Shown here: positions 172 to 47,325 of the stretch, piece by piece
Numbering within the stretch: position 1 is the first letter of the stretch
Layout of the letters: each line of letters opens with the position of its first letter
Origin: Octopus vulgaris
Lineage: Eukaryota
Assembly (NCBI GenBank): GCA_951406725.2
Contig: OX597819.1
Span: forward strand, 57,722,001 to 57,786,000
Length of the DNA: 64,000 nucleotides
Direction: 5' to 3'
Notes under the pieces: model-generated
Told to the model about the DNA's origin: nothing
What the model saw: only the letters and a program-made list of their open reading frames with translations
Database searches by the model: none
Translations under genes and position numbers: made by a program

Positions 172-1375
172 GTATCTATTTCAAATCTTCCCATTATTTC
201 TGAAATCATCCAAACATGAATGCATACGAGAACCTAGGATTGTTGTTTCTAAGATTAAAAAAAAAAAAAAATTATGATTCCGAAATACTGAAACGTAGAA
301 AATTTCTGGCTAGAATCGCAACAACAGCGCTCGTATAGTATGACAATCCGTATTATAAGGAGAATATAATAAGTCAAGTGATATGTAAAACGTTTTTATA
401 CAACTGATGTGAAAACCAATCCACAACACATCAATAGCTGGAATTCATGCCCAGACGATCTTTGAGTGAATGGCAAGACAAGCATCAATCATTTTATAAA
501 TTGTCGCAGGTGGATATCTTCCAATAGAATAATGTTTCTTTCGAACAGTCTTACATAGAAACATTCCTGCTTTATTCTAGAATGAAGAATAAAAATATTC
601 AGATTACGTTTAGATAATCGAAGATAAAATTTTTCATAAATAATCCGAGAGAGGTTTATATGTTCAGTAGATACCTGGGATTATGCAAGAATCAAGAAAA
701 TTTTAAATATGATTAAACTACGACGATCATTATCTTAAAAGAATTTTTTTTACTGTCTTCAAGAAAACTTTTTAGTGTGTCCTTTATATGACAGAATATC
801 AAATAAATCCCTTTCATATAATACTGAACCGTTGTAAAAGAGTAAAGCACATTGGATAATGTAGGTCTAATATTCTGCATTTCAGCGGCAAAGAATGAAT
901 GGTCATGGTTGGATTGTCTTTGGCCATAGAGTTATTTGGCCATCCCTTTATTAATCTCTCTATATATAAAACTGAGAATGTGTGTCTGTCTGTATGTGTT
1001 TTCTCCCTAAACTTGAGAACTACACAGCCAATTTCATTCAAATTTTATACATGCCTTACTTAAGGTCCGGGGAGTGTCATCAGCAAAGAAATCTTAACTT
1101 TTTCCCTAGGGCAACCCCACAGCAATATCATATCTTCTCCACTATTTCAGTATTACGTGTTAAAAGTGAAACAAACACATCTCTCTTTTGTAATGCAGAC
1201 ACTTTCACTATTAAAGTGAAAGTATTATATAACAGGGATGAACCATTAACAATAGTCATCCATTTTGTTATAAGAAGATCCGCTATGGTCTTATATGCTA
1301 CACTACTGGTTTTCAATTCATATTAATCAAATTAATATTCAATTTTTTACCCTTATTATGTGTGTATGTGTGTGT

Positions 1376-2173
1376 GTGTATGACATCGTTTTATTGGACT
1401 TTGCCAAAGCTTTTGACTCGGTAAACCACCGCCTATTACTTGTCAAGCTTCAAGCATATAGTTTCCATCCGGATATTGTACGATGGGTTGGTGCCTTCCT
1501 CTCAGATCGCTCCTTCCAAGTCCAAGTTAATGGTTCGCGGTCCGACGTCTCCAGTGCGAGCAGTGGCGTGCCTCAAGCTTCAGTGCTTGGGCATTTATTG
1601 TTCTTAGTCTTCATAAACGACTTGCCCGACGACCTCACGCAACACACCCTTCTATTTGCCGACGATGTCAAAGTGGTCGCTCTTCGCGGTGATATAGAGG
1701 ATCTTCGTCGATGCCTCTAACAAATTTGGAGATGGTCTAACGAATGGGACTTGTGTCTGAACGTGTCAAAGTGCTGTCATCTGCCTGTTGGCTCTCCTCC
1801 TGCAATTCAACTTGATTTCGAGCCGGGTCGTCTTCTGCTGGAGAGGACCGATCAGGTAAAGGACCTGGGTATCTTGGTGGATTCCTCCTTTTCACCTTCG
1901 GCCCAGTGCGTCCATGCTGCCAACAAAGCACGCGGAGTTCTGTTCTTGATTCGACGGTCATTCCGAATGCTCACGGCAGCCATATTCCTACCGCTCTATG
2001 TCACGCTGGTGAGACCCATATTGGAGTACGGGATTCAAGCCTCTTCTCCTATCTCCTCAAAGACATACAGCATCTCGAAAGAGTCCAGAAGCTGGCTACC
2101 CGCATGGTTCTTGGTCTCAAGAATTTGTCTTATGAAGAAAGGCTGAAGACGCTCGACCTTTATTCTCTAGAAT
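1376..2173 (+). pseudogene. Non-LTR (CR1/L2/Jockey group) reverse transcriptase fragment
   Basis: Motifs LDFAKAFDSVNH, SGVPQASVLGHLLF, LFADD, KDLGILVD, LVRPILEYG and LERVQKLATR...YEERLKTLDLYSLE. In-frame stop at 1718-1720 and a frameshift near 2045. Confidence 0.92.
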
Positions 2174-3914
2174 AATGCAACTTTAGGAGAGGCTGCTTTA
2201 TCACAATCACTTAAAAGTCTCAGGGCTAAATTTGCAGTATTACTACAGGCATGCGAACTGTGTGATCCGGCCACTCTCTGGCTCAAATATAGAGACAACC
2301 TGGCTGAAGACTTTCAGCGCCAAGCTCAACTGCTCTAACCTGACATGACGGGTATCAGCAATGAAATCTATAACAAAACACTCATTGACATTGAAGACAG
2401 AATTGCTAAACTGGGTGGAAATGAATTGTCGACGTATGGCCTGCCACAAGCATTCAGGTCAGGGTCAAATAGCCTTCCCACTACTGTCATTCGTGAAACA
2501 ACCTACGACACTCGAGCTCTTTCAAAGTACATTGTTGAAAACGAGCCTAAATTACTTCCGGACCAGCTGCAGGCCTACAGAACTATTCTTAACAGTGTAC
2601 GCCAACGCGAGACACGAATCTTCTTCCTCGATGCTCCTGGAGGGACAGGAAAAACATTTATTACAAAGCTTCTCCTGGCAGAAGTTAGGCAGCATCGGGA
2701 CATTGCAGTAGTTGTAGCCTCCTCTGGCATTGCAGCTACTTTGTTACCCAGTGGCAGGACAACGCACTCAACTTTTAAACTCCCTCTCAATTTAGCAGCA
2801 TCCGAAATGCCTTCATGCAACATCCACAAAAGCTCAGATCAGGAACAAGTACTTAAAATGTGTCATCTAATTGTCTGGGATGAGTGCACTATGGCTCACA
2901 AGGGAACTTTGGAAGCATTAGATAGAGCCCTGAAAGACATCCCAGACTCTCAGGCTCCAATGAGAGGTGTAACACTTCTGTTGTCAGGTGATTTCAGGCA
3001 AGCTCTTCCTGTCATTCCGAAAGGTACTAGAGCAGATGAATTCCAAGCATGCCTAAAGTCCTCTACCCTGTGGCATCATGTTACAATCCTCAGTCTCACC
3101 ACTAACATGAGAGCTCAGCTACACGGCGACAAAATGTCCACAAAGTTTGCACAGGACATTTTGACACTTGGTTAAGGCGATGCCTCTCGATGCTGCAGGA
3201 CAAATGGAAGTGTGGTGATTTTTCTCTGTTGTTAATTCTGTAGATGACCTCAAAAACAAAGTCTTTCCCAACTTCACACAAAACTACCAAAATCACAATT
3301 GGCTGTGTGAAAGAGCAATATTAGCTCCAAAAAACGTCGCTGTTAACAAAATTAATCAACAGCTAATGCATTCTCTTCCCGGCACTATACACACTTAGAA
3401 GTCTGTTGATACATTTCCGGATATAAATGAAGTTGTGGCCTATCCTCCTGAATTTCTCAATTCACTGGAGCCTCCTGGACTATCTCCACACATATTAGCA
3501 CTTAAAGTTGGAACTCCTGTAATGCTACTCCGCAATCTGGAACCACCAAGACTTTGCAATGGAACACGACTGGTGATAAAGAAAGTGATGTCACACGTTA
3601 TCGAGGCGATCATTCATTCTGGATGTGGAAAAGGGGATGACGTCTTTATTCCAAGAATTCCTTTTACTCCATCAGGAGAATAAATTCCATTAACATTCAG
3701 AAGACTGCAATTCCCCCTTCGTGTAAGCTCTGCCATGTCCATTAACAAATCTCAGGGTCAAACCCTCTCTGTAGCTGGTCTTCTCATAGAAGAGCACTGC
3801 TTCTCGCATGGGCAACTGTATGTTGGCTGCTCAAGAGTAGGGACCAAAAGAAACCTTTTTGTATATGTTCCACAAGGAAAAACAAGGAACATTGTTTACA
3901 ACGAGGTGTTATAA
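2174..3914 (+). pseudogene. Helitron RepHel C-terminal half: Pif1-family (SF1B) DNA helicase, disrupted
   Basis: Linker TLGEAA..LRAKFAVLL.ACE..DPATLW..Y..NLAEDF; Walker A DAPGGTGKT; Walker B IVWDE; GDFRQ; MLLRNL..PRLCNGTR; INKSQGQTL; FSHGQLYVGCSRV; ends KTRNIVYNEVL* at 3914. Several stops and frameshifts. Confidence 0.93.
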
Positions 3915-5640: not shown

Positions 5641-6400
5641 CTAATTATGGAAAACAACAGCGATTCAAAAATCTTCGAAAATTTTCTGAAAATTTTCCTC
5701 AAACGTTCTTGAAAATTTTCCTCAAAAATTTTTGAAAATTTTCCCCAAAATTTTTGAGAAACTTTTCGAAAATTTTCCGCAAAAATTTTTGAAAAATTTT
5801 TTTAAAAATTTTTACCCCAAAATTTTTTTAAACTTTTTCGAAAGTTTTCCTCTAAATTCTAATTATGGAAAACAAGAGCGATTCAAAAATTTTCCTCAAA
5901 AATTCTTGAAAATTTTCCCCAAAATTTTTGACAAATTTTTTGAAAATTTTCCCCATAAATAAATGAAAAATTTTTTGAAAATTTTCCCCAAAAACTTTTG
6001 AAAACTTTTTCGAAAATTTTCCTCAAAATTCTAATTTTTTGAAAATTTTCCTTGGAAATTTTCCTCAAAAATTTTTGAAAATTTTCCCTAACATTTTTGA
6101 CAAATTTTTGGAAAATTTTCACCATAAATAACTGAAAAATTTTTTGAAAATTTTCCCCAAAAACTTTTGAAAAATTTTTCGAAAATTTTCCCCAAAAATT
6201 TTTCAAAATTTATTTGAAAATTTTCCGCAAAAATTTTTAAAAAATTTTTTAAATTTTTACCCAAAAACTTTTGAAAACTTTTTCGAAAATTTACCTCAAA
6301 ATTCTAATTATGGAAAACAACAGCGAATCAAAAATTTTTGAAAATTTTATGAAAATTTCCCACAAGAGTTCTTGAAAGTTTTCCTCAAAAATTTTCCCCA
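5641..6400. repeat. Diverged A/T-tract minisatellite (GAAAATTTTCC/CAAAAATTTTT units) with a recurring CTAATTATGGAAAACAA block
   Basis: Visible tandem ~10-22 bp units. The block recurs at ~5641, ~5859 and ~6304. A related short patch lies at ~4310-4373. Confidence 0.9.
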
Positions 6401-33489: not shown

Positions 33490-34997
<1,508 letters not shown>

Positions 34998-35382
34998 TCT
35001 CTCTCTATATAAACGGCAGTTTGTCTGTCTGCGTGTCTGTGTGTCTGTTAGGTTGTACCCTCACCCTGACCACGGCTTTCAACCGATTCTGATGAAACTT
35101 GACACACTCGTAGCCCAATGTCATAATTCAAAACTAACGCAGCGAAAATTTTGAAAAGTTCCCCCAGTTCTGACAAAAATCGATAAATTCGACATGGGGT
35201 CGAGAATCAGAAACACAAACCACAGACTGTCTAGGGGACGCAACTCGACCTTTTTAACTCTCAAACAAAAATTTACTATCATTTTTTTTCCCATTTTTTG
35301 CTATTTTTTGGCTATAACTCTCTAAAAATGCTTTATAGTTATTTCCCTTACAAACCCGAGCAACGCCGGGCGATACTGCTAG
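34998..35382 (+). mobile_element. Complete non-autonomous Helitron (385 bp)
   Basis: a|TCTCTCTCTATATAAAC...GTCTGTCTG at the 5' end and CCCGAGCAACGCCGGG-CGATACTG-CTAG|t at the 3' end. Inserted between A and T with no TSD. Confidence 0.92.
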
Positions 35383-36000: not shown

Positions 36001-36606
36001 TATATAAATGCGTACATATATGATATAGGGAGCGCAAATGTTCACATATCCACATGCAGGCCTATGCATAAAGGCAAATATACAGAGAGATACATAAAGA
36101 AAAATTCAATAACGTGGACGAAATACGAATTCTCGGAAGTTTCCTTTGTTCTCCAAAAACCGTATTAATCGCTCTTTGAAAAGGAATATTCTATGTTATT
36201 CTTCAATTATTAATATTAAGCATATTTTCATCAACGTAAATTTCTCTTCACCGACTACTTGTCAAATAATGGCTATTGCAAATAACATTCAACTCAATTG
36301 CTATAAAGATTTACACAGCAATAACAGCAACCGCTCTCATCATTCATGCGTTTTCTTTTGAAATTTCGCAGCATTACGTATTCATATATGCATCGTGTCT
36401 TAGGATCCATTCATCTACCTACCTATCTAGATGCTTATATATATCTACCTACTTGCCTATCTCTCAATCTTTCTATTATTTCTTATTTCTGTCTTTAGAT
36501 GTAATTATCGACTTTTACATGCGCCTTACTATCTAACTGTCTGTCTATTTATCTAACCAACACTATATCTATTACCTGTCAATCGATTTCCATTTTCCTA
36601 TTGTTA

Positions 36607-36638
<32 letters not shown>

Positions 36639-36691
36639 CGTATATATACATATATATATATATATATACGTATATATATATATATATATAC

Positions 36692-36744
<53 letters not shown>

Positions 36745-37237
36745 TATATATATGCATTGATTGAATCTTTCATGCGTTAACACGTACCTCCTTGCGCCTA
36801 TATATATATATATATGCATACATACGTATGCATCCATGTATATATGCATGTATGTCTCTGAGTGTATCGCTGTGTGACTGTGTTTGTGTGTGTGCGTGTG
36901 TGCGTGTGTGGGGGTGACTGGATATCGAATGTTGCTGCCTTACAAACACTCTTCAATTGTTTTATCTATCGATCTATCTACAAATCGATTTCTTACACCG
37001 GCACACACATTAAGGTTATATGAAGCTAAATGCACCTAATTTTATTACTGATATTCTTTTATGAAACTTGGTACAATGTTGAGAGTTGATCCTAGATCAT
37101 TAAAAATATACCATGTGGTACGTCATTTAATCATCTATCTGGAAACTTCTACCATATTCTCTCAAACTCAGTTTATAATACTGATAACTGATTTGGTCCC
37201 AAGGACATGATTATTATGACTGGGCTTAGGTCAGCAT

Positions 37238-37428
37238 GATGGCAGAATTTTTAGCACTCATTACAAAATGCTGAGCGGTATCTCTTAAAGCTCTTTACAT
37301 TCTGAGTTTCAATGACTTTGAACTTTGCTTTTAATCCCTCCGAGGTCAATGAAATAAGGTACACATCAAGTACTTGAGTCACTGTAACTGATTTGTCCCC
37401 CCACCTATCAAAATTACTGGCCTGGAAA
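37238..37428 (+). mobile_element. SINE family B, diverged copy
   Basis: TGGCAGAATTTTTAGCAC...AAATGCTGAGCGGTAT...ACATTCTGAGTT...ACTTTGCTTTTAATCC matches the family B layout. Confidence 0.65.
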
Positions 37429-38526
37429 CTGCAACGGACCCGCATCCTGTTCTGGTGTATTGCTGCGATGCTTGTTTGCATATACAATTTGGAAACCAGG
37501 TAACCGGCCTGATGAATCCTAAAACATGAGAAACTCAGGACTTTGTTGCTCATTTTATAATCTTAACTGTAAGTTGATCACATATGGAGACCGTGCGGAA
37601 CATAGCACTATGCGCACAGCAGAGCACTCCTGTCTATCTGTGCATGTGTTAATCTATCTGTGTGTTCATCTAATTGAATGTTTATGTATGCGTATGTGTG
37701 GTGTGATTAACAGAAATAGTTAGGTAATCCTAATTTTATAGAAGGCAGCTTAGAGTACACCAGAGTTCATAGAATATACGTGGAAAAGAAAGACGAATTG
37801 AGGAAATGTTGTGAGAAATAAAAGATTAATAAAGTCTATCATCAGAAGGTAACTTTTTTTGCAACAGACCGTCATGTCGGCTAATCATGCTAATAGATTT
37901 GGTGATATGATTAGCGAAGTTATTAGGGTATCAGAGAGAATACGTTGATAGTCTGACATTGGTTCAGGATCTCTGTGTTGCAAGTTCAAATCCCGGCGGA
38001 TTCAATTTTGTCCTTTATCCCTTCAGGATCAATAATTAAAACAACAGCTTACTGTTGATGCAACCTCATTTCCCGTTAACCGTCTCATGGCAGTTGCTTG
38101 AAACTCAGGCGGCTGAAGGGTTAAGCATGTTGCTTTGGGAAAAGGATATCACAAGTTCAATCACACTCTGTAGCTTATTAGTAAGCATGTTTTAACGGAG
38201 CTTCGGGTCAGCCCAAGACTTAAAAAGCAGAAATACTTAGACGAAAAGTGTAGTAACCAGTCAGACGGATTGTTAATAGAATTCGAAAGTCCAACCTCAT
38301 CATATATTGCGTCGTATCACTTCTGCGTTAGGCTTAAGTGAGAGGGGACACATGTTTATAGAATATTCAACCAGTTACACGTTAATTGAAAGAAATCTTG
38401 ATCGGAGAAAGTGAATGTATATTGTGGAAACCGACGGAGATCCATTTTATTTGCATGCGTCAATGAGAGTGAAAGAAAGATTTAAAAAGAATATATACAT
38501 TCGCAGCACACACACATCATATATAC

Positions 38527-38557
<31 letters not shown>

Positions 38558-39099
38558 TTGCGTGTGTATGTATGCATGTATGTATGTATGTCTATACGGG
38601 GGTAGTTACGTACAAAGTTACAGAGAGACAAAAGAAGTGATAGGCAGATAAATCTAAAGATAATAAGTCATTGATTGTTCGGTTAGATATTCACGCGATG
38701 TAAATATTTTCATTCCAGTAGACGTAAATAAATAAAAATAATAATGGAATTCCTACAGCACCATAATACAAATTAACAATAAAACTAAAAGCATATCAAA
38801 TAAAAGAATGCTGAAATCTTATCAGTTTGATACTATTTTCAGTGTGATTCTGAAAGTTCGCCAAATCATTTTGAAAGGTGACGGAAAGATTAGAATTTGT
38901 CGAATACGTTGACAAAGAGAAAAGTAAAACAATGATACTTCGAAACCAATATGTTTTTTAAGCATTACATGATTATACTGTTTGATGTTTTGTATGTGTT
39001 TTTCTTTTTAATATTTTTAGTTCATATTTTAATCTGCAAGTATAATACATTCGTTAGAAGACCAGCGTCTGTATATCTACGATATTATTTTCCTCACTT

Positions 39100-40170
39100 C
39101 ACGCTTGCTAAGTTCAAATCAGGTTATACCATAAGCATTTGAAAGCAATGTCTGGCACACTATTGACGGAAGCTTTCTTTTATATATCACTATCGAATGT
39201 AGCTGGTTGTTTTTAGTTATTTCAGTAATACCTCCATGCATCGCCCAGCCCGAACTACAGTCGATTATTTTGACCCATTATCAGAAAGGATCCTTTCCAC
39301 TTTTGCAACGTCGACATCTTAATCATTATAGTTCAGAAAGCACTACATTCAGAGAGAACGTCCCCAAAATATTCTACCGCTTTGCATTAAATGCTACATT
39401 GAATGCAATTGATAAATATCCCCAAGAAATATCTTTTTTACTAATTGCCATACTTACTATTAGCTACATATATAAGTCCAGTGCGAAAACAAATCTGGTC
39501 TCTTCAAACCACCAATGCCACCAGCACTAACAATATCCTTAATATAAGCTACATGCAATGCGCCCTCGAACTAGTTCCCATTCTCTCTAAATTAAATCTT
39601 TCCCTCACACAAAACTATATCCTAATCATGTTTATCATTTCCAAGAAAGGCAAAACCTTGCGGCTTGCTAACTATCATCCTCTGGCGCTCATCTCTCGCA
39701 TCTTAAAAGTAACCGAGACATATATAATAACATCCTTTTCCAACACTTTCGATCTATTTTCCATTTGAATGCCTCCAGTACGGAGTTTGCATACTAAGAT
39801 CTAATGACGTAAATGTTTCTATCACTTAACAGCAGAGTATTCGATTGTGTCTAGCACATGAATTACCAAACCAAACTGCCCGGCTATCGATTATTGGTAG
39901 TTTGTTAGATTTGCAACACGTAATGAGGCAGACCTCTCAAACCAACACTCTTATTACTGGTGTTTGCCAAGTTTCGGCATTACAGAGACTCATCCATCCA
40001 CAAGTTTATGACGTGGTTGTTGTCAATGACACCCACTTCTATGCAATTTTCAAGCTTCATTCCTGCTTCATCTTCCGCACACAAGCGTCATCCATATAAA
40101 ACCTCAGCATACCAAGTTAAACCAACACTGACTCCAAAAAGATAGACCAACTGATGTTCTAGTGTGCTTA
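39100..40170 (+). pseudogene. Decayed CR1/Jockey-group LINE reverse transcriptase
   Basis: IISKKGK...ANYHPLALISRILKVTETYI (NYRPISL motif), QYG...RS, TGVCQVSAL (GVPQGSVL) and VVNDT (YADD position). Confidence 0.7.
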
Positions 40171-40279
40171 AACTAAATCCAGATATTGTCGTACGGGTTT
40201 TGTTATATATGACTGAAGTCGTAAGAGGTAGTTGGTGTTCAACATTATTATCTACTTGGTACTAGGCTAGCACTTCCTT

Positions 40280-40314
<35 letters not shown>

Positions 40315-40411
40315 TGATAAAAATGGTAAGACCACAAAAGAATGAAAGAGACCTCGATATTATGTAAATAGAGGAATTTATCTGTAAAAGTAATATGTAA
40401 CAATTAATCAG

Positions 40412-40484
40412 GAGCCATGATAAAACTCTGAGTTTCAGATGCCGAGGCGGAGATCCACGCCCCAATCACTTCAGTTATCTGGCC
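40412..40484 (-). ncRNA. Type I hammerhead-like fold with two core deviations
   Basis: GGCCAGAUAA-CUGAAGU-[GAUUGGGGCG…CGCCUCGGCAUC]-U-GAA-ACUC-A-GAGU-U-UUAUC-A-UGGCU. Stems I, II and III all pair. U replaces A9 and there is an extra U before G12. GUU triplet. Confidence 0.6.
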
Positions 40485-40499
40485 GTCGGAAAATTATTT

Positions 40500-42315
40500 T
40501 CCCAATGGCGAGATATTTCGGAGGATTCTCTAACTTCCGGGATATTTCGTCGAAAATTTGCTGGAAAGTTCCGAGGATTTTATAACTTCCGAGAAAGTTG
40601 GTCAAAAACTTCCTGGGAAGTTCCGAGGATATTCTAACTTCCGGCTAATTTCGTCGAAAATTTAATGGGAAGTTCCGAAGATTTTATGACTTCCGGGAAG
40701 TTTCGTCGAAAATTTCATGGGAAGTTCCGAAGATTTTCTAACTTCCGGGAAGTTTCGTCGAAAAATTATGGGAACTTTCGAGGATTTTATAACTCACGGG
40801 AAGTTTCGTCGAAAACTTCCTGGGAAATTCCGAGGAATTTCTAACTTCCGTGAAGTTTCATCGAAAACTTCCTGAGAAGTTCCGGAGATTTTCATTGAAA
40901 CCTACCAGGGAAGTTCCGAGGATTTTCTAACTTCCGGGGAGTTTCGGCGAAAATTTCCTGAGAAATTCCGAAGATTTTCTAACTTCCGGGAAGTTTTGTC
41001 GAAAAAATCATGCGAAGTTCCGAGGATTTTCTAATTACCGGGAAGTTTCCTCGAAAACTTCCTGGGAATTTCTGAGGATTTTCTGACTTCCGCAAAGGTT
41101 CCCCGAAAACTTCCTGGGATGTGCTGAGGATTTTCTAACTTCCACGGAGTTTCGTTGAAACCTTCCTGGGAAGTTCCGAGGATTCTCTAATTTCAGGCGA
41201 GTTTCGGCGAAAATTTCCTGGGAAGCTCCGAAGATTTCCTAACTTCCGGGAAATTTCGACGAAAAAACATGCGAAGTTCCGAGGATTTTCTAATTACCGG
41301 AAGTTTCCTCGAAAACTTCCTGGGAATTTCTGAGGATTTTCTGACTTCCGCAAAGGTTCCCCGAAAACTTCCTGGGATGTGCTGAGGATTTTCTAACTTC
41401 CGCGAAGTTTCGTTGAAACCTTCCTGGGAAGTTCCGAGGATTTTCTAATTTCAGGCGAGTTTCGGCGAAAATTTCCTGGGAAGCTCCGAAGATTTCCTAA
41501 CTTCCGGGAAATTTCGACGAAAAAACATGCGAAGTTCCGAGGATTTTTTAATTACCGGGAAGTTTCCTCGAAAACTTCCTCGGAATTTCTGAGGATTTTC
41601 TGACTTCCGCAAAGGTTCCCCGAAAACTTCCTGGGATGTGCTGAGGATTTTCTAACTTCCGCGAAGTTTCGTTGAAACCTTCCTGGGAAGTTCCGAGGAT
41701 TTTCTAATTTCAGGCGAGTTTCGGCGAAAATTTCCTGGGAAGCTCCGAAGATTTCCTAACTTCCGGGAAATTTCGACGAAAAAACATGCGAAGTTCCGAG
41801 GATTTTCTAACTTCCGAGATATTTCGTCGAGAACTTCCTGGGATATTCCGAGGATTTTCTAACTTCCTGGAAGTTTCTTCGAAAACTTCCTGAGAAATTC
41901 CGAAGATTTTCAAACTTCCGGGAAATTTTGTCGAAAACTTCCTGGGAAGTTCCAATGACTTTCTGACTTCCGGGAAATCTGGTCGAAAAGTTCCTGGAAA
42001 ATTCCGATTACTTTTAATTTCCGGGAAGTTTCGAAGATTTTCTAACTTCCGGGAAGTTTCGTCGAAAACTTCCTGGGAAGTTCCGAAGATTTTCTAACTT
42101 TCGGGAAGTTTCGTTGAAAACTTCCTTTGAAGTTCCGAGTATTTTCTAAGTTCCGTGAAATTTTGTCGAAAACTTCCTGGGAAGTTTCGAGGATTTCCTA
42201 ACTTGTGGGATGTTTCGTCGAAAACTTCCTGGGAAGTTCCGATGATTTTTAACTTCCGGGAAGTCTCATCGTAAACTTCCTGGGGAGTTCCGAGGATTTT
42301 CTAGCTTCCAGGATA
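40500..42315. repeat. Satellite, 52-bp monomer (~35 copies) with a 258-259 bp higher-order repeat
   Basis: Consensus GAGGATTTTCTAACTTCCGGGAAGTTTCGTCGAAAACTTCCTGGGAAGTTCC (GAAGATTTTC at 42033 and 42085). Diagnostic variant GCAAAGGTTCCCCG at 41092, 41350 and 41609. Confidence 0.95.
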
Positions 42316-42788
42316 TTTGGGGGCGTGGATTTCCACATCGGCATCTGAAACTCGGAGTTTTATCATAGCTACCGAAGAATTGTCACATATTACTTATATA
42401 TATTTATATATAACTGCGTACGTATAAAGGTAAAAGATTAAAATATTTTATTACCAGTGGTTCGCATGCGTGATAAAATTCATAAGACAAAATATTTTAT
42501 ATATGAGTGTATAAAGATTTATATACGCAGAGATACTTGACAGGACTTCTCACATGCTAAAGAGGGAAGTTAAATCCAAACCACGAAAAAGGAATACTTA
42601 AGTCATGCTGCTAATAGGCACAAGAGTGAATATATGCATATATTTATGTATATGTATGTGTGTGCGCACGTGTACGTATGCGTGTCTGTATAGTTTTTAA
42701 TTAGAAATTAAATTTAAAATTATGAACATGTAGGACTGAACCCGGAACTAAGTATGTGGTAAGTAGGCATCAGATCACACAACCACGC

Positions 42789-42855
<67 letters not shown>

Positions 42856-43028
42856 AACAAACTCTAAAATCAGAGCAGTAATTATTACATATTATAAAAT
42901 TTTATTGCGGGTATATATATATATATACATATAAATATATGTATAAATTGGAAATATTATCTTTTTGTACACTGCCATGCATGTTCTTGTGATTGTCTCT
43001 AAATACTGTTTCCAGAACGATGAGAATC

Positions 43029-43253
43029 CTTTCTACTATAGGCACAAGGCCTGAAATTTGTAGGGAGAAGAATAGTCGATTACCTCACCTCACTCCCCAC
43101 CCCCGGTGTTGAATTCGTACTTATTTTATCAACCCCGAAGGAAAGAAAGGCAAGGAGTCCTCGCCGGAATTTGAACTCAGAACGTAAGGACTAACGAAAT
43201 GTCGATACACATTATGCCCGGCATGCTTAACGATGTGGCCAACTCTTCGCCTT
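43029..43253 (-). mobile_element. SINE family B
   Basis: Colinear with 29278-29490. Confidence 0.85.
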
Positions 43254-44229
43254 TGTTTCATAGACGGTTAACTGAACATCTAGGTACTCTCTGCAATATC
43301 GAATATATGTAAATCCGACTGTAGTGTTTTTTTTTCTTCTATGGACTGTTTATTCAATTAATACGTAAATACTGCCCATGCCATTATTGCCTGAGCAAAA
43401 TATTATGGACTGTTTATTCAGTTAATATACATAGACTCGTCTTGCAATAATTTCATGAACAAAATGTATGCCGTATTATTGACATCCTTATGCTGTGTTA
43501 TTGAAGTTAATATTGTATTATTGATATACGTATTATATTCGATTGTATCCCATTGTATCCCTCCCATGCATCCGCATATATTATTAACCCAGACAATGAA
43601 CATAACGGAGTCTATTCGTGCGGAAGTGTGTCTATGTGTCCGACCTAGCTCTGGTTGTTAGTACGGGAGTGTGTGCATGTTCGTATTTATGTCTCTGCCT
43701 TAGAGAATATGTGCGGGTGTGTATATATGGGAATGTAAATGTATGTATGTATGTATGTATGCGTGTGTGTGAGGGCGTGTATACATAGATATACATGTAT
43801 GTGGACACTAGTATCGAGACATACATACGCAGACAAGGCTTAGGCTCCAGTTACTGACAGGCCAGCTCATACATCAACAACGAACGGCCGACGAAACAGG
43901 CTGGCTCCGTCGTTTGTAGCTACTGTAATCTGACTGCACAGAGGGCCATCTGCAAAATGTAGATGTCAACACACCAAATACTACTCAATAACCAGAGTGT
44001 GTCGCTGGTCTTTGTCTCCTTGTCTCTTACGAGATTGAATTATCTTTGGTTGTGTTTAATGACATATCCTTATCTGTGACCAAGGGGATACATGTCTGTC
44101 CGTCACAACACTATGGGTATGTGCATGCATATCTCTATGTGCATGTTTACGAGAACAAGTGTATATTTATCAAAATAATATTTTTCTTATTCTTTTATTA
44201 TTTGTATTATATTTACTATTAACTATATA

Positions 44230-44662
44230 AGATCTTTTCGGTTTGAACGGCAGTTTTTTCTAGCGGTGTCATATGAAATTGTCACCCATAATTATGACCC
44301 TAGTATCGATCTATTGCATTTTAATCTGTTTTAGGGTTAAGGTTAGTTAGTGTTAGGTTTAGGGGTGGGAGAAGGGTATCTTTTTTTCTTCAGAAATGTA
44401 AATAAACCCAATCTGTTTCTTAAACGAGGGAATATTCATACGGCACAGAATGTTTTCACCCCCAATAGCCGTCTTTGATTGGTTGAATTTGCAGAAATTG
44501 AGGAAAAAAACAACAAATATCTTACAAACTATAGAATATTTTCTCAATAAAACCAAGAGAAAAAGATGTTTTATAAACACATTCTACCAGTATACGAAGT
44601 TTAAAAGTGTTTAGTTACCTAGAAATTATTTTTATAAACTGCCGTTCAAACCGAAAAGATCC
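44230..44662. mobile_element. MITE with ~27-bp TIRs and 8-bp TSD (Merlin-like)
   Basis: TIR (A/G)GATCTTTTCGGTTTGAACGGCAGTTT at both ends. TSD ACTATATA at 44222-44229 and 44663-44670. A GG terminus with an 8-bp TSD fits Merlin. Confidence 0.9.
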
Positions 44663-45905
44663 ACTATATATAGACGCATTAAGGGTATATAAAAAAAATA
44701 AAATGTATCTATTCCATGTCATTCCAACCCACGGAACCTGAAGGCAACCAACTACAAGCAAATAATGACATGCATTATAACAGAACAAAGCGAATCCGAG
44801 TTTAGTGAGTGAGGTACCTTTTGAAAATTCCCCTGATGAAAAACATCTGAACCGAAAGATGCAACATAACCAGCTGTATAGTATCTTAGCCGCGAGGGAC
44901 CGATGCAAAATAGGTCGAAACAGTCATTGTGATGAATAAAGAGTCTTGTGAGTTCCATTCTCTTTCTCTCAGCAAATCGGAAAAATCGTGAAAAATATCA
45001 GGAGACAAGGGTTTCATGACAAAAATATGCGAATAAGCAACGAGTAATTTAAATAATTATAAAATAGTTTGAATTTAGATTTACAGAAAGTTGAAAAGCT
45101 TGTTTTATATTTTTTCTTCCCATAGTTCAAATTTATTATTGAATAAGCAAAGAGGTATATAGTGGGTCCTATCTGGTAAACAGAGATGGTAAAGGAAGTT
45201 GTGTAATATATCAAGCAGAATAAGATTTGTTTGAAGTAACATCATGATGTATACACGACTGCATGGAAACACGCAGAGAAAAGCAAGTGTACAAATAAAA
45301 GGAAAATGATGTGCAACATAAAACGTCAAACCCTATAGAAATTCGACAGTAACGAAAGAAAATCTATTTTTATATTGTTACTTAGAGGAATTAATTCCAC
45401 CTTTTGATAAATTTTAAGCAAGTAAATTTTCGATAACTCGCATTCGACCAATCCTAATATCACATTTCGATTTTTTATTTTTCATTGGATCTCCATATTC
45501 TTTATAACTCATGCAAATATTGTCACGGAACGACAAAAAATGGAAATTAAATATTCCTCATAAGATATTCAGTAGATAGATTGTTTTTTTAATGTATCTT
45601 TGCTCTTAAATGTTTGAGGATCACGAAATTACACAAGCAGCCACACACTGCGCTTATACATACACAGCGCACACGCAGGTACAGACAAACGCAGAGTGAT
45701 TTATGTATACCACTGGGTGTATCATTATTAAACTTAGCGAAGTGTATTTCACAAAAACGGCTTAACAACAAATGTCTATATGAATTTTGAATTATCCACA
45801 GCGACGACAAAAGCCTAAACAGTAAAAGAAACATATTGGAAAAAATATTTTCTACAATAGGTTCAATGTCTGATAATATCTAACTACAACAACCCCAATA
45901 TCGAT

Positions 45906-46323
45906 TGGCTGTGTGGTAAGTAGCTTGCTTACCAACCACATGGTTCCGGGTTCAGTCCCACTACGTGGCACCTTGGGCAGGTGTCTTCTACTATAGCCTC
46001 GGGCCGAACAAAGCCTTGTAAGTGGATGTGGTTGACGGAAACTGAAAGAAGCCCGTCGTATATATGTGTGTGTGTCTGTGTGTGTGTGTGTGTCTGTATA
46101 TGTTTGTGTGTCTGTGTTGTTCCCCCCCACCAACATCGCTTGACAACTGGTGCTGGTGTATTTACGTCTCCGTAAATTAGCGGTTCGACAAGAGAGACCG
46201 ATAGAATAAGTACTAGACTTACAAAGAATAAGTCCTGGGGTCGATTTGCTCGACTAAATGCGGTGCTCCCGCATGGCCGCAGTCAAGTGACTAAAACAAA
46301 GAAAAGAATAAAAGAAAAAAGAA
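45906..46323 (+). mobile_element. tRNA-derived SINE family A
   Basis: Colinear with 11727-12148; AAAAG-type tail. Confidence 0.92.
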
Positions 46324-47325
46324 CTAGGCCAACTGGCATTTATTTTCACGCGAACGAAAGAAAAACTTGACTTCGACAGAAGTTGAACTCAAAACGTAAA
46401 GCCAGAAGAAACACGACAAACCAGTCTCTTCGTTGTGCTAATTATTTTGATAATCAACCTTTTCAAAAGCCTGTAAAATAAACAACCTATAAAAGGCAAG
46501 GCATAATAGAACATCAATAATTTTTTATTCCCATATCTAAAGTGTAGGTAGCGAAAATATGTCAAGCTGAGACCTTTATTTGATCTACCGGTGACTCAGT
46601 ATCGTATTTCTCCAGTCTAAATTCTCAACTTCTCATTTACATTCAAAATATCACTAGATGTTGTCTAACATTTTTTGTTGGAATCCACAGCTTTGCAATA
46701 CTTTTATTTCTTTTACTTATTTCTCCATCTTTGTTTTGCCACCTTTTTATATTTATTTCGATATGTATACCCCATTATACAACAATTTAAGAAAGTATTT
46801 ATTTTTACCGTTCACGAATTAGTTCTTTTTATTTTTTACTTTCAAAAACTATTTGAAAGAAAAGTTAGTTAATCGAATGATATAAATGACCATTTTTGCT
46901 TCTTGGAGAATGACCCCAATATCAGAAAAGTGACTAACGCTCTATGTTCCATGGATTTCTTCCGAAAGGCAAGGATTAGGTCATTAACGAAATTACTAGT
47001 CAGAGGAAACTTATCCCAAACGAACAAAAACTGAGCAATGCTGCCAAAGTAATAGGGGTCGAAAAACTCATATTAATGCTTACTGCTTAACATCGAATTT
47101 CTGATTGGTTGATACAATCGTTCATCCAACAGTGTCTCTATTACAATATTCGTTTCATACTTACCTCAGTGTCATTATGAACACGGACCAGCGAATTTAA
47201 CATTGCAGATGAGTAAACGGGAACAGAAACGCGCCAATAATGCATATCAAAAATAGGTGTAGGTCAAAGTTGCATAAATTAAGAAATAAAGATCATTATC
47301 TATGCATTTATATATGCAGGAGTAG

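What the first reader, a model, noticed from the sequence alone, without database searches (positions are those of the whole stretch)
40315..42395. Satellite array enclosed by inverted hammerhead-containing arms, inserted in (TA)n
Seen: ~77-bp inverted arms bracket the entire 1.8-kb array. The left arm carries a whole hammerhead fold on the minus strand. The right arm carries only its 3' half (stem II 3' side, GAAACUC-G-GAGU-U-UUAUC) on the plus strand and is cut off by the array. Known: Penelope-like elements can have inverted partial pLTRs bearing hammerheads, and some satellites in newts, crickets and schistosomes are hammerhead-associated. Inference: a non-autonomous ribozyme-bearing retroelement or foldback element whose interior expanded into, or carries, a satellite. 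This would be a possible RNA-mediated route for satellite dispersal that may be undescribed in this lineage.
Basis: partly seen in the sequence, partly recalled or inferred. Interest (0 to 1): 0.75.

Follow-up and report, generated by a model that had tools for sequence, protein, structure and literature searches.

The report
Satellite patch inside Penelope retrotransposon end
The two arms are the ordinary head-to-head footprint of a Penelope-type jumping gene, and the satellite sits inside one arm in place of the ribozyme's catalytic letters, likely as a one-off repair patch; elsewhere in this genome the same satellite often rides inside a likely cut-and-paste DNA transposon and was never seen with these arms.

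Summary
The arms and the array are real, but they are not one travelling unit. The left arm (40315-40493) is the hammerhead-bearing 3' end of an abundant Penelope-like element (PLE) with Hydra-clade motifs, inserted in (TA)n; 40 of 69 other copies carry the same inverted partial copy, 0 of 69 carry the satellite. The inverted arm really starts at 40494, so the 1.8-kb array lies inside it, 22 bp off the fold-back axis, replacing 10 letters that include the CUGAAGA core; the left core is mutated (A9U). The 52-bp unit has no hammerhead. Of 46 other arrays, 0 have the arm within 500 bp; 24 abut pieces of a non-coding hAT-like element (YARNG ends; 8-bp target duplications at 16 of 17 loci with both ends). 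Best reading: an ordinary PLE insertion later patched with satellite DNA at a break, then expanded in place; capture during integration is the rival (~0.25). The scan noted hammerhead-per-unit arrays with Penelope footprints elsewhere in this genome; look-ups with this array found nothing.

The parts
40279..40314 (.). (TA)n target, left side
   Evidence: TRF period 2, 18.5 copies; family copies end at the same letter next to (TA)n
40315..40493 (-). Left arm: 179-bp 3' end of a 5'-truncated Penelope-like element (sense = minus strand)
   Evidence: 88-92% identical to dispersed copies, 1971 candidates; 165/179 to the family majority; copies L012, L002, L010 run on into a GIY-YIG/RT frame
40315..40389 (-). 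Terminal 'tail' present on the left arm only (about 62-75 bp)
   Evidence: the shorter arm of family pairs stops at reference position 62-71 in most loci, 76 here; tail at one end only is described for PLEs (PMC8557442 passages)
40419..40479 (-). Type-I minimal hammerhead layout with core change A9U (position 40468)
   Evidence: stem I GAUAA/UUAUC, long stem II, palindromic stem III; passes only with A9 relaxed
40494..40515 (+). First 22 bp of the inverted (right) arm, left of the array
   Evidence: 18/22 to family copy L022; run X1 reads the family letter at 40494 and 40510 (20/22)
40516..42317 (+). 52-bp satellite array, 34 units, replacing 10 letters of the arm that include the CUGAAGA core; bounded by a 7-bp direct repeat GATATTT (40512-40518, 42312-42318)
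   Evidence: no hammerhead in the unit (0 of 26 core-like candidates pass)
41018..41793 (+). Three copies of a five-monomer (259-bp) higher-order repeat: recent expansion in place
   Evidence: matching monomers 94-100% identical against an 80% array mean
42318..42395 (+). Rest of the inverted arm: stem II, GAAA (42347-42350), stem III, cleavage-site region, stem I 3' strand
   Evidence: blast to family copy 42318-42393, 89%; shares the rare GGGGGCG variant with the left arm (3 of the 62 copies tallied)
42396..42412 (.). Short degenerate (TA)n, right side of the target
   Evidence: sequence

Best explanation
The arms are one ordinary 5'-truncated insertion of a Penelope-like retrotransposon (Hydra-type motifs) into (TA)n with its usual head-to-head inverted partial copy, and the satellite sits inside the inverted arm in place of the 10 letters holding the hammerhead core, likely copied in later as a one-off patch at a DNA break and then expanded in place. 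Steps: (1) shown: a common element end, two arms from one template, tail on one arm only; inferred: both nicked strands primed reverse transcription and the two cDNAs were joined head to head. (2) shown: 10 letters lost, short homologies at both joints, no transposon ends on the array; inferred: the ~100-bp near-palindrome broke 22 bp off its axis and repair synthesis copied about 1.3 kb from one of the dispersed arrays. (3) shown: a five-monomer block was triplicated after arrival. The ribozyme is predicted dead here (left core A9U, right core gone, arms on opposite strands). The satellite's main carrier elsewhere is a likely non-autonomous hAT DNA transposon.
For: 0 of 46 other arrays have the arm within 500 bp, 24 of 46 abut the hAT-like element, 22 are flanked by unrelated DNA, so the satellite lands on its own at many sites. 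40 of 69 other arm loci have the inverted copy and 0 of 69 the satellite; 21 of those 40 inverted arms reach as far 5' as this one would without the array. All 7 fillers of >=48 bp seen in the 40 pairs lie at the joint between the arms, whereas the array lies 22 bp inside the arm with the template resumed 10 letters on. Both junctions are single among 40 scored candidates each. Higher-order repeat 94-100% identical. Carrier: 16 loci with both ends have 8-bp duplications (10 exact, 5 at 7/8, 1 at 6/8). In vitro a PLE cuts and extends both strands and starts internally, giving the tail (PMC11167929, passages and half of the main text).
Against: The family does switch template while integrating: 4 of the 7 fillers are other parts of the same PLE and 1 is a copy of nearby host DNA, and PLE ends can capture host DNA (PMC3846280 passages), so capture at integration is possible. 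No allele with the arms but without the array was seen. The donor array was not found (best colinear match 80-83%), and arm divergence (77/91; family median 92%) is of the same order, so dating does not order the events. The 7-bp repeat GATATTT at both joints could be a target-site duplication in an arm that had already lost the core; it is also a satellite variant (2 more times inside this array; 0.08 per monomer elsewhere). Loci were the best-scoring hits, not a random sample.
Confidence: 0.62

Rival explanations
1. Capture during integration: while copying the second (inverted) cDNA the PLE reverse transcriptase stalled at hammerhead stem II, jumped to a satellite template (RNA or DNA), copied about 1.3 kb, and returned to the PLE RNA 10 letters further on; arms and array arrived in one event.
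For: Template jumps at the 5' joint are real in this family (L008, L134, L136, L139 to other PLE parts; L005 to flanking host DNA); several inverted arms stop within stem II or the core, near this joint (L102, L128, L130, L135); the array lies only 22 bp from the axis; left arm and right arm share template variants.
Against: All 7 fillers seen lie between the arms, none inside one; needs two jumps with near in-register return; 0 of 69 other loci hold this satellite; 22 of 46 arrays sit in unrelated DNA with no PLE, so a PLE-free route exists.
Confidence: 0.25
2. The array was inserted by a staggered-cut mechanism (retroposed satellite transcript or re-integrated circle) into an arm that had already lost its core; GATATTT is a 7-bp target-site duplication.
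For: Exact 7-bp (7/8 over 8 bp) direct repeat at both joints; inverted arms of this family do show internal skips (L026).
Against: The motif is a satellite variant; no poly(A) or terminal inverted repeat on the array; 15 orphan arrays checked show no comparable joint repeat outside tandem hosts (boundaries approximate).
Confidence: 0.09
3. One reading: a non-autonomous hammerhead retroelement or foldback element whose interior is the satellite and which disperses it through RNA.
For: Arms bracket the array in (TA)n; an intact-frame sister PLE family exists that could act in trans (717-aa frames).
Against: 0 of 46 arrays and 0 of 69 arm loci repeat the arrangement; junctions single; array destroys one core and the other is mutated.
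Confidence: 0.03

Closest known systems
Hydra clade of C-terminal EN+ Penelope-like elements (Craig et al. 2021, PMC8557442; passages and section 11 read)
   Same: RWK, DKT, CxCX5C linker, CxxC and CxH, no CCHH, hammerhead in the end repeat, (TA)n target, inverted 5'-truncated copy and one-sided tail
   Different: Tail here about 62-75 bp rather than 30-40; very high copy number with many intact sister frames (21463 candidates); this copy is interrupted by a foreign satellite. Clade placement is by motif, no tree.
[quoted passage not shown]
   Same: Long helix II, 5-bp helix I, extra unpaired letter beside stem II, palindromic helix III suited to dimers; pairs 100-700 bp apart on opposite strands are described
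   Different: Both motifs at this locus are broken
Non-LTR retrozymes / hammerhead satellites (Li, Clavereau, Pollet, 10.64898/2026.07.22.740005; part 1 of 5 read)
   Same: Tandem array associated with a PLE end and hammerhead
   Different: Retrozymes carry a hammerhead in each unit; the 52-bp unit has none and is unrelated to the PLE end
Host-DNA capture by Penelope pLTRs in Adineta vaga (PMC3846280; passages read)
   Same: Unrelated DNA framed by pLTR copies
   Different: There cargo lies between whole pLTRs with target duplications; here it interrupts one arm and removes the core
Satellite arrays as central repeats of non-autonomous DNA transposons (Cg_HINE Helentrons, PMC7492417 abstract; Xstir and miDNA4 MITEs, PMC9659126 passages)
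   Same: Short dispersed arrays of variable length inside a non-coding mobile element (the carrier found at other loci)
   Different: Carrier here has hAT-type ends and 8-bp duplications, is 2.7-9.3 kb long and is stuffed with decayed LINE reverse-transcriptase, SINE-like and mariner-like pieces

Membership tests
EN+ Penelope-like element (arms) | End repeat linked to an RT plus C-terminal GIY-YIG frame | tested here: met
   L012/L097 runs from the arm into thumb, linker and nuclease frames, 74-90% identical to an intact 708-aa sister frame that also ends in a relative of the arm. Pfam support is weak: GIY-YIG E=0.037 for the piece, nothing for the whole frame.
EN+ Penelope-like element (arms) | Hammerhead motif in the end repeat | tested here: met
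   52 of 69 loci pass a core-plus-stems descriptor; 71 of 89 arm copies keep both core words. No Rfam hit; no compensatory change between subfamilies; cleavage untested.
EN+ Penelope-like element (arms) | Adjacent inverted 5'-truncated copy and one-sided tail | tested here: met
   40 of 69 loci; ends at reference 62-71 in most
Hydra clade | RWK, DKT, CxCX5C, CxxC, CxH present; CCHH between GIY and YIG absent; (TA)n target | tested here: met
   All found in the intact sister frame L164 (definitions); the arm family's own decayed frame shows CxCX5C and CxxC
Hydra clade | Groups with Hydra elements in an RT tree | not tested
   No named reference sequences were available (homologue search gave unnamed hits)
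Non-LTR retrozyme (array) | Hammerhead in every tandem unit | tested here: not met
   0 of 26 core-like candidates in this array and 0 of 619 in 36 others pass stems I and II
Foldback / non-autonomous cargo element (arms plus array) | Same ends around the same cargo at several loci | tested here: not met
   0 of 46 arrays, 0 of 69 arm loci, single junctions
hAT non-autonomous element (carrier at other loci) | 8-bp target-site duplication | tested here: met
   16 loci: 10 exact, 5 at 7/8, 1 at 6/8; L072 has a decayed left end and no duplication; definition PMC3014272 passage
hAT non-autonomous element (carrier at other loci) | Short terminal inverted repeats starting YARNG | tested here: met
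   Ends CAAGG and CAGTG, 11 of 15 letters alike
hAT non-autonomous element (carrier at other loci) | A hAT transposase gene with the same ends somewhere in the genome | tested here: inconclusive
   Frames of 7 end-selected loci read by eye (output partly cut); none tied to these ends; no family scan run

The most novel reading that the evidence does not exclude
A Penelope-like reverse transcriptase stalled at its own hammerhead, copied more than a kilobase of an unrelated satellite and returned to its RNA, so that PLE integration events seed foreign satellites at new (TA)n sites; together with the hAT carrier this satellite would hitch-hike on both a DNA transposon and a retroelement.
Probability: 0.22. 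Interest if true: 0.6.

Novelty: new member of a known kind. Interest (0 to 1): 0.3.

Why it matters
As it stands the locus is a chance nesting of two mobile repeats and does not show an RNA route for satellite spread. Its use is as a clean record: the two-armed PLE footprint with a one-sided tail at 40 loci fits priming from both nicked strands, fillers show template jumps at the joint, and the follow-up exposed how this 52-bp satellite really moves: inside a multi-kilobase hAT-like element built of fossil LINE pieces, with further arrays dropped at unrelated sites. If the array proved to have been captured during PLE integration, it would be direct genomic evidence that PLE enzymes can disperse unrelated satellites.

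Tried and rejected
Rfam at gathering score on the window and at E<=10 on 4 loci: no hammerhead family. Covariation between the arm family and its young sister subfamily: only one-sided or breaking changes in stem II (read by eye), so no structural proof. Hammerhead in the 52-mer (it has CCGAGGA...GAAA and two hairpins): no stem I, 0 pass. Search for the donor array: best 80-83% colinear, none stands out. Foldback reading of L142 (arrays inside long inverted flanks): a local inverted duplication, not an element. Runs X3, X5, X6 (three other species labels) cover the unique left flank but give no cover at 40475-40505; no contig joins across, so this says nothing on presence or absence. No RNA holder listed. 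Pfam gave nothing for the intact PLE frame; homologue search gave 928 unnamed relatives. Paper searches for octopus + satellite DNA + Penelope (4 papers), satellite + hAT + non-autonomous + internal tandem + mollusc, Penelope-like + satellite + pLTR (15 of 16 listed), templated insertion + satellite + palindrome and octopus + hAT + satellite showed, by title and abstract start, no description of this locus, satellite or carrier; Repbase/Dfam and the supplements of PMC8557442 (which list Hydra families and their hammerheads) were not seen and may hold the PLE family. Look-ups of earlier scan findings by relatives and by sequence found nothing.

Full report
Observation. The window shows (TA)n at 40279-40314, an inverted pair of 84 nt at 40380-40463 and 42320-42403 (85% complementary), and a 52-bp array between them. 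The array has 34 units of 80% mean identity, with a five-unit block repeated three times at 41018-41793 whose matching units are 94-100% identical. The window lies at G000:C6:57722001-57786000 in a 2.8-Gb genome; earlier notes of the scan call this genome an octopus, which I did not test. A contig of run X1 bridges 40419-40554, so the left junction exists outside this assembly.

The arms are a common element end. A search with 40315-40515 gave 1971 candidates, 40 scored, at 87-92% identity, nearly all beginning at the same letter beside (TA)n. Copies L012, L002 and L010 run on through about 900 bp of non-coding DNA into a nuclease frame on the same strand as the hammerhead. A protein search with that frame gave 21463 candidates, including a young sister subfamily with open frames of 717 codons whose 3' end is 82-85% identical to the arm. 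The intact frame has RWK, DKT, a CxCX5C linker, CxxC and CxH, and no cysteines between the two halves of the GIY-YIG motif: the list that defines the Hydra clade of Penelope-like elements, which also targets (TA)n and carries hammerheads (PMC8557442, section 11 read whole). Pfam support is weak and no tree was built.

The two-armed form is the family's normal footprint. Of 69 other loci (29, 40 fetched from the lists; best-scoring hits, not a random sample), 40 have a partial inverted copy next to the 5'-truncated end and none holds the satellite. The shorter arm usually stops 62-71 letters before the element's end, leaving a tail on one arm only. Inverted 5'-truncated copies and one-sided tails are described for PLEs (PMC8557442 passages), and a purified PLE protein cuts and extends both strands and starts inside the RNA (PMC11167929, passages and second half of the main text). 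I infer priming from both nicks and a head-to-head join.

The hammerhead. The family majority reads as a type-I minimal hammerhead: 5-bp stem I, CUGAAGA, long stem II with one extra letter, GAAA, a palindromic stem III and a GUU site (folding z = -2.5; a dimer in hammerhead form scores -42.9 against 2 x -14.5 kcal/mol). This matches the PLE type described in PMC4209133 (part 1 of 4 read). 71 of 89 arm copies keep both core words and 52 of 69 loci pass a descriptor. Rfam has no matching model, no compensatory change was seen, and cleavage is untested. In the window the left core reads CUGAAGU and the right core is absent; neither passes.

Where the array really sits. The 22 letters left of the array (40494-40515) are the start of the inverted arm: 18/22 to a family copy, 20/22 with the two letters that run X1 reads there. 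The arm resumes at 42318, ten template letters later; the lost letters hold the core. Both arms share a variant seen in 3 of 62 tallied copies, so they come from one template. A 7-bp repeat GATATTT stands at both joints; it overlaps PLE letters in part and is a satellite variant found twice more inside the array, so I read it as microhomology but cannot exclude a target duplication.

Does the satellite travel with the arms? No. I fetched 46 other arrays (36 from the 150 listed rows, 10 more from the listed rows; 140-5195 bp). None has the arm within 500 bp; the nearest is 3.5 kb away. Searches with each junction found only the window among 40 scored candidates. The 52-mer holds no hammerhead (0 of 26 candidates here, 0 of 619 in 36 arrays), so this is not a retrozyme as defined in 10.64898/2026.07.22.740005 (part 1 of 5 read).

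What does carry it. 24 of the 46 arrays abut pieces of one shared element (two of these, L081 and L151, rest on a short or more distant piece). It has sharp ends that begin CAAGG and CAGTG (11/15 alike) and 8-bp target duplications at 16 loci with both ends (10 exact, 5 at 7/8, 1 at 6/8); a 17th, L072, has a decayed left end and none. These are the hAT marks given in PMC3014272 (passage). Its interior is decayed LINE reverse-transcriptase pieces, a SINE-like and a mariner-like piece (read from translations; names recalled) around an array of variable length. Exact 32-letter end patterns occur 22 and 42 times, controls 0. Of 18 loci picked by the left end alone, 3 hit the 52-mer by blast and 2 show a related 26-bp repeat by TRF, so many copies have lost or never had it. 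Satellite arrays inside non-autonomous DNA transposons are known (PMC7492417 abstract; PMC9659126 passages). The other 22 arrays sit in unrelated DNA, other repeats or (TA)n; the window's array is one such orphan (one search found no carrier piece within 36001-47000).

How the array got in. Best reading (0.62): a later break in the near-palindrome was patched by copying satellite DNA, with loss of 10 letters, and the five-unit block then triplicated, so about 1.3 kb arrived. For: a PLE-free route exists (22 orphans); 21 of 40 inverted arms reach as far as this one without an insert; all 7 fillers of 48 bp or more lie between the arms, not inside one. Against: 4 of those fillers are other parts of the same PLE and 1 copies nearby host DNA, so the enzyme does jump, PLE ends can capture host DNA (PMC3846280 passages), several arms stop near this same spot, no array-free allele was seen, and neither arm divergence (77/91) nor the nearest array (80-83%) orders the events.

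Verdict. Real anatomy, ordinary parts: a Hydra-type PLE end interrupted by a dispersed satellite. The proposed RNA route for satellite dispersal is not supported; the hAT-like carrier is a new member of a known kind. Searches of the paper library (titles and abstract starts) did not show this satellite or carrier; repeat databases and the Hydra supplements were not seen. Interest 0.3.

Noticed in passing
L071, L077, L086, L090, L091, L093, L095, L147, L149, L178, L179, L181-L183, L188, L189: A 2.7-9.3-kb non-coding hAT-like element (8-bp duplications, YARNG ends) stuffed with fossil LINE, SINE-like and mariner-like pieces; it carries the 52-bp array at variable length, and internal deletions often end at the array.
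   Followed up: yes
L164-L167 and one search list: A young sister PLE subfamily with many intact 717-codon frames and Hydra-clade motifs; its hammerhead core reads CCGAAGA or CCGAUGA (U4C) in the three copies read.
   Followed up: partly
L005, L008, L106, L134, L136, L139, L141: Fillers of 48-739 bp at the head-to-head joint: four are other parts of the same PLE, one copies host DNA about 350 bp away, one holds a young dispersed repeat, one is unexplained.
   Followed up: yes
window 40516-42317: The unit is built of short palindromes; TTCCNGGAA occurs 13 times and TTCCNNGGAA 16 times, resembling STAT-type sites (recalled, binding untested).
   Followed up: no
L142:5280-7866; also L073, L091, L149: Arrays that switch orientation; at L142 a local inverted duplication (94%) is centred on the satellite, suggesting it promotes fold-back rearrangements.
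   Followed up: partly
L063, L079, L080, L088, L094, L096, L143: The 52-bp array joins directly to a second, ~34-bp satellite; L076, L148, L151, L177, L179, L181 show a related ~26-bp repeat that may be the half-unit ancestor.
   Followed up: no
window 1274-2143 and 2339-3172: A decayed LINE reverse-transcriptase piece followed by a 278-codon helicase-like frame of Helitron type (read from translation; names recalled).
   Followed up: no
window 5664-6303 and 33492-34998: A second AT-rich array (35-bp period) and a 1.5-kb (AT)n tract.
   Followed up: no
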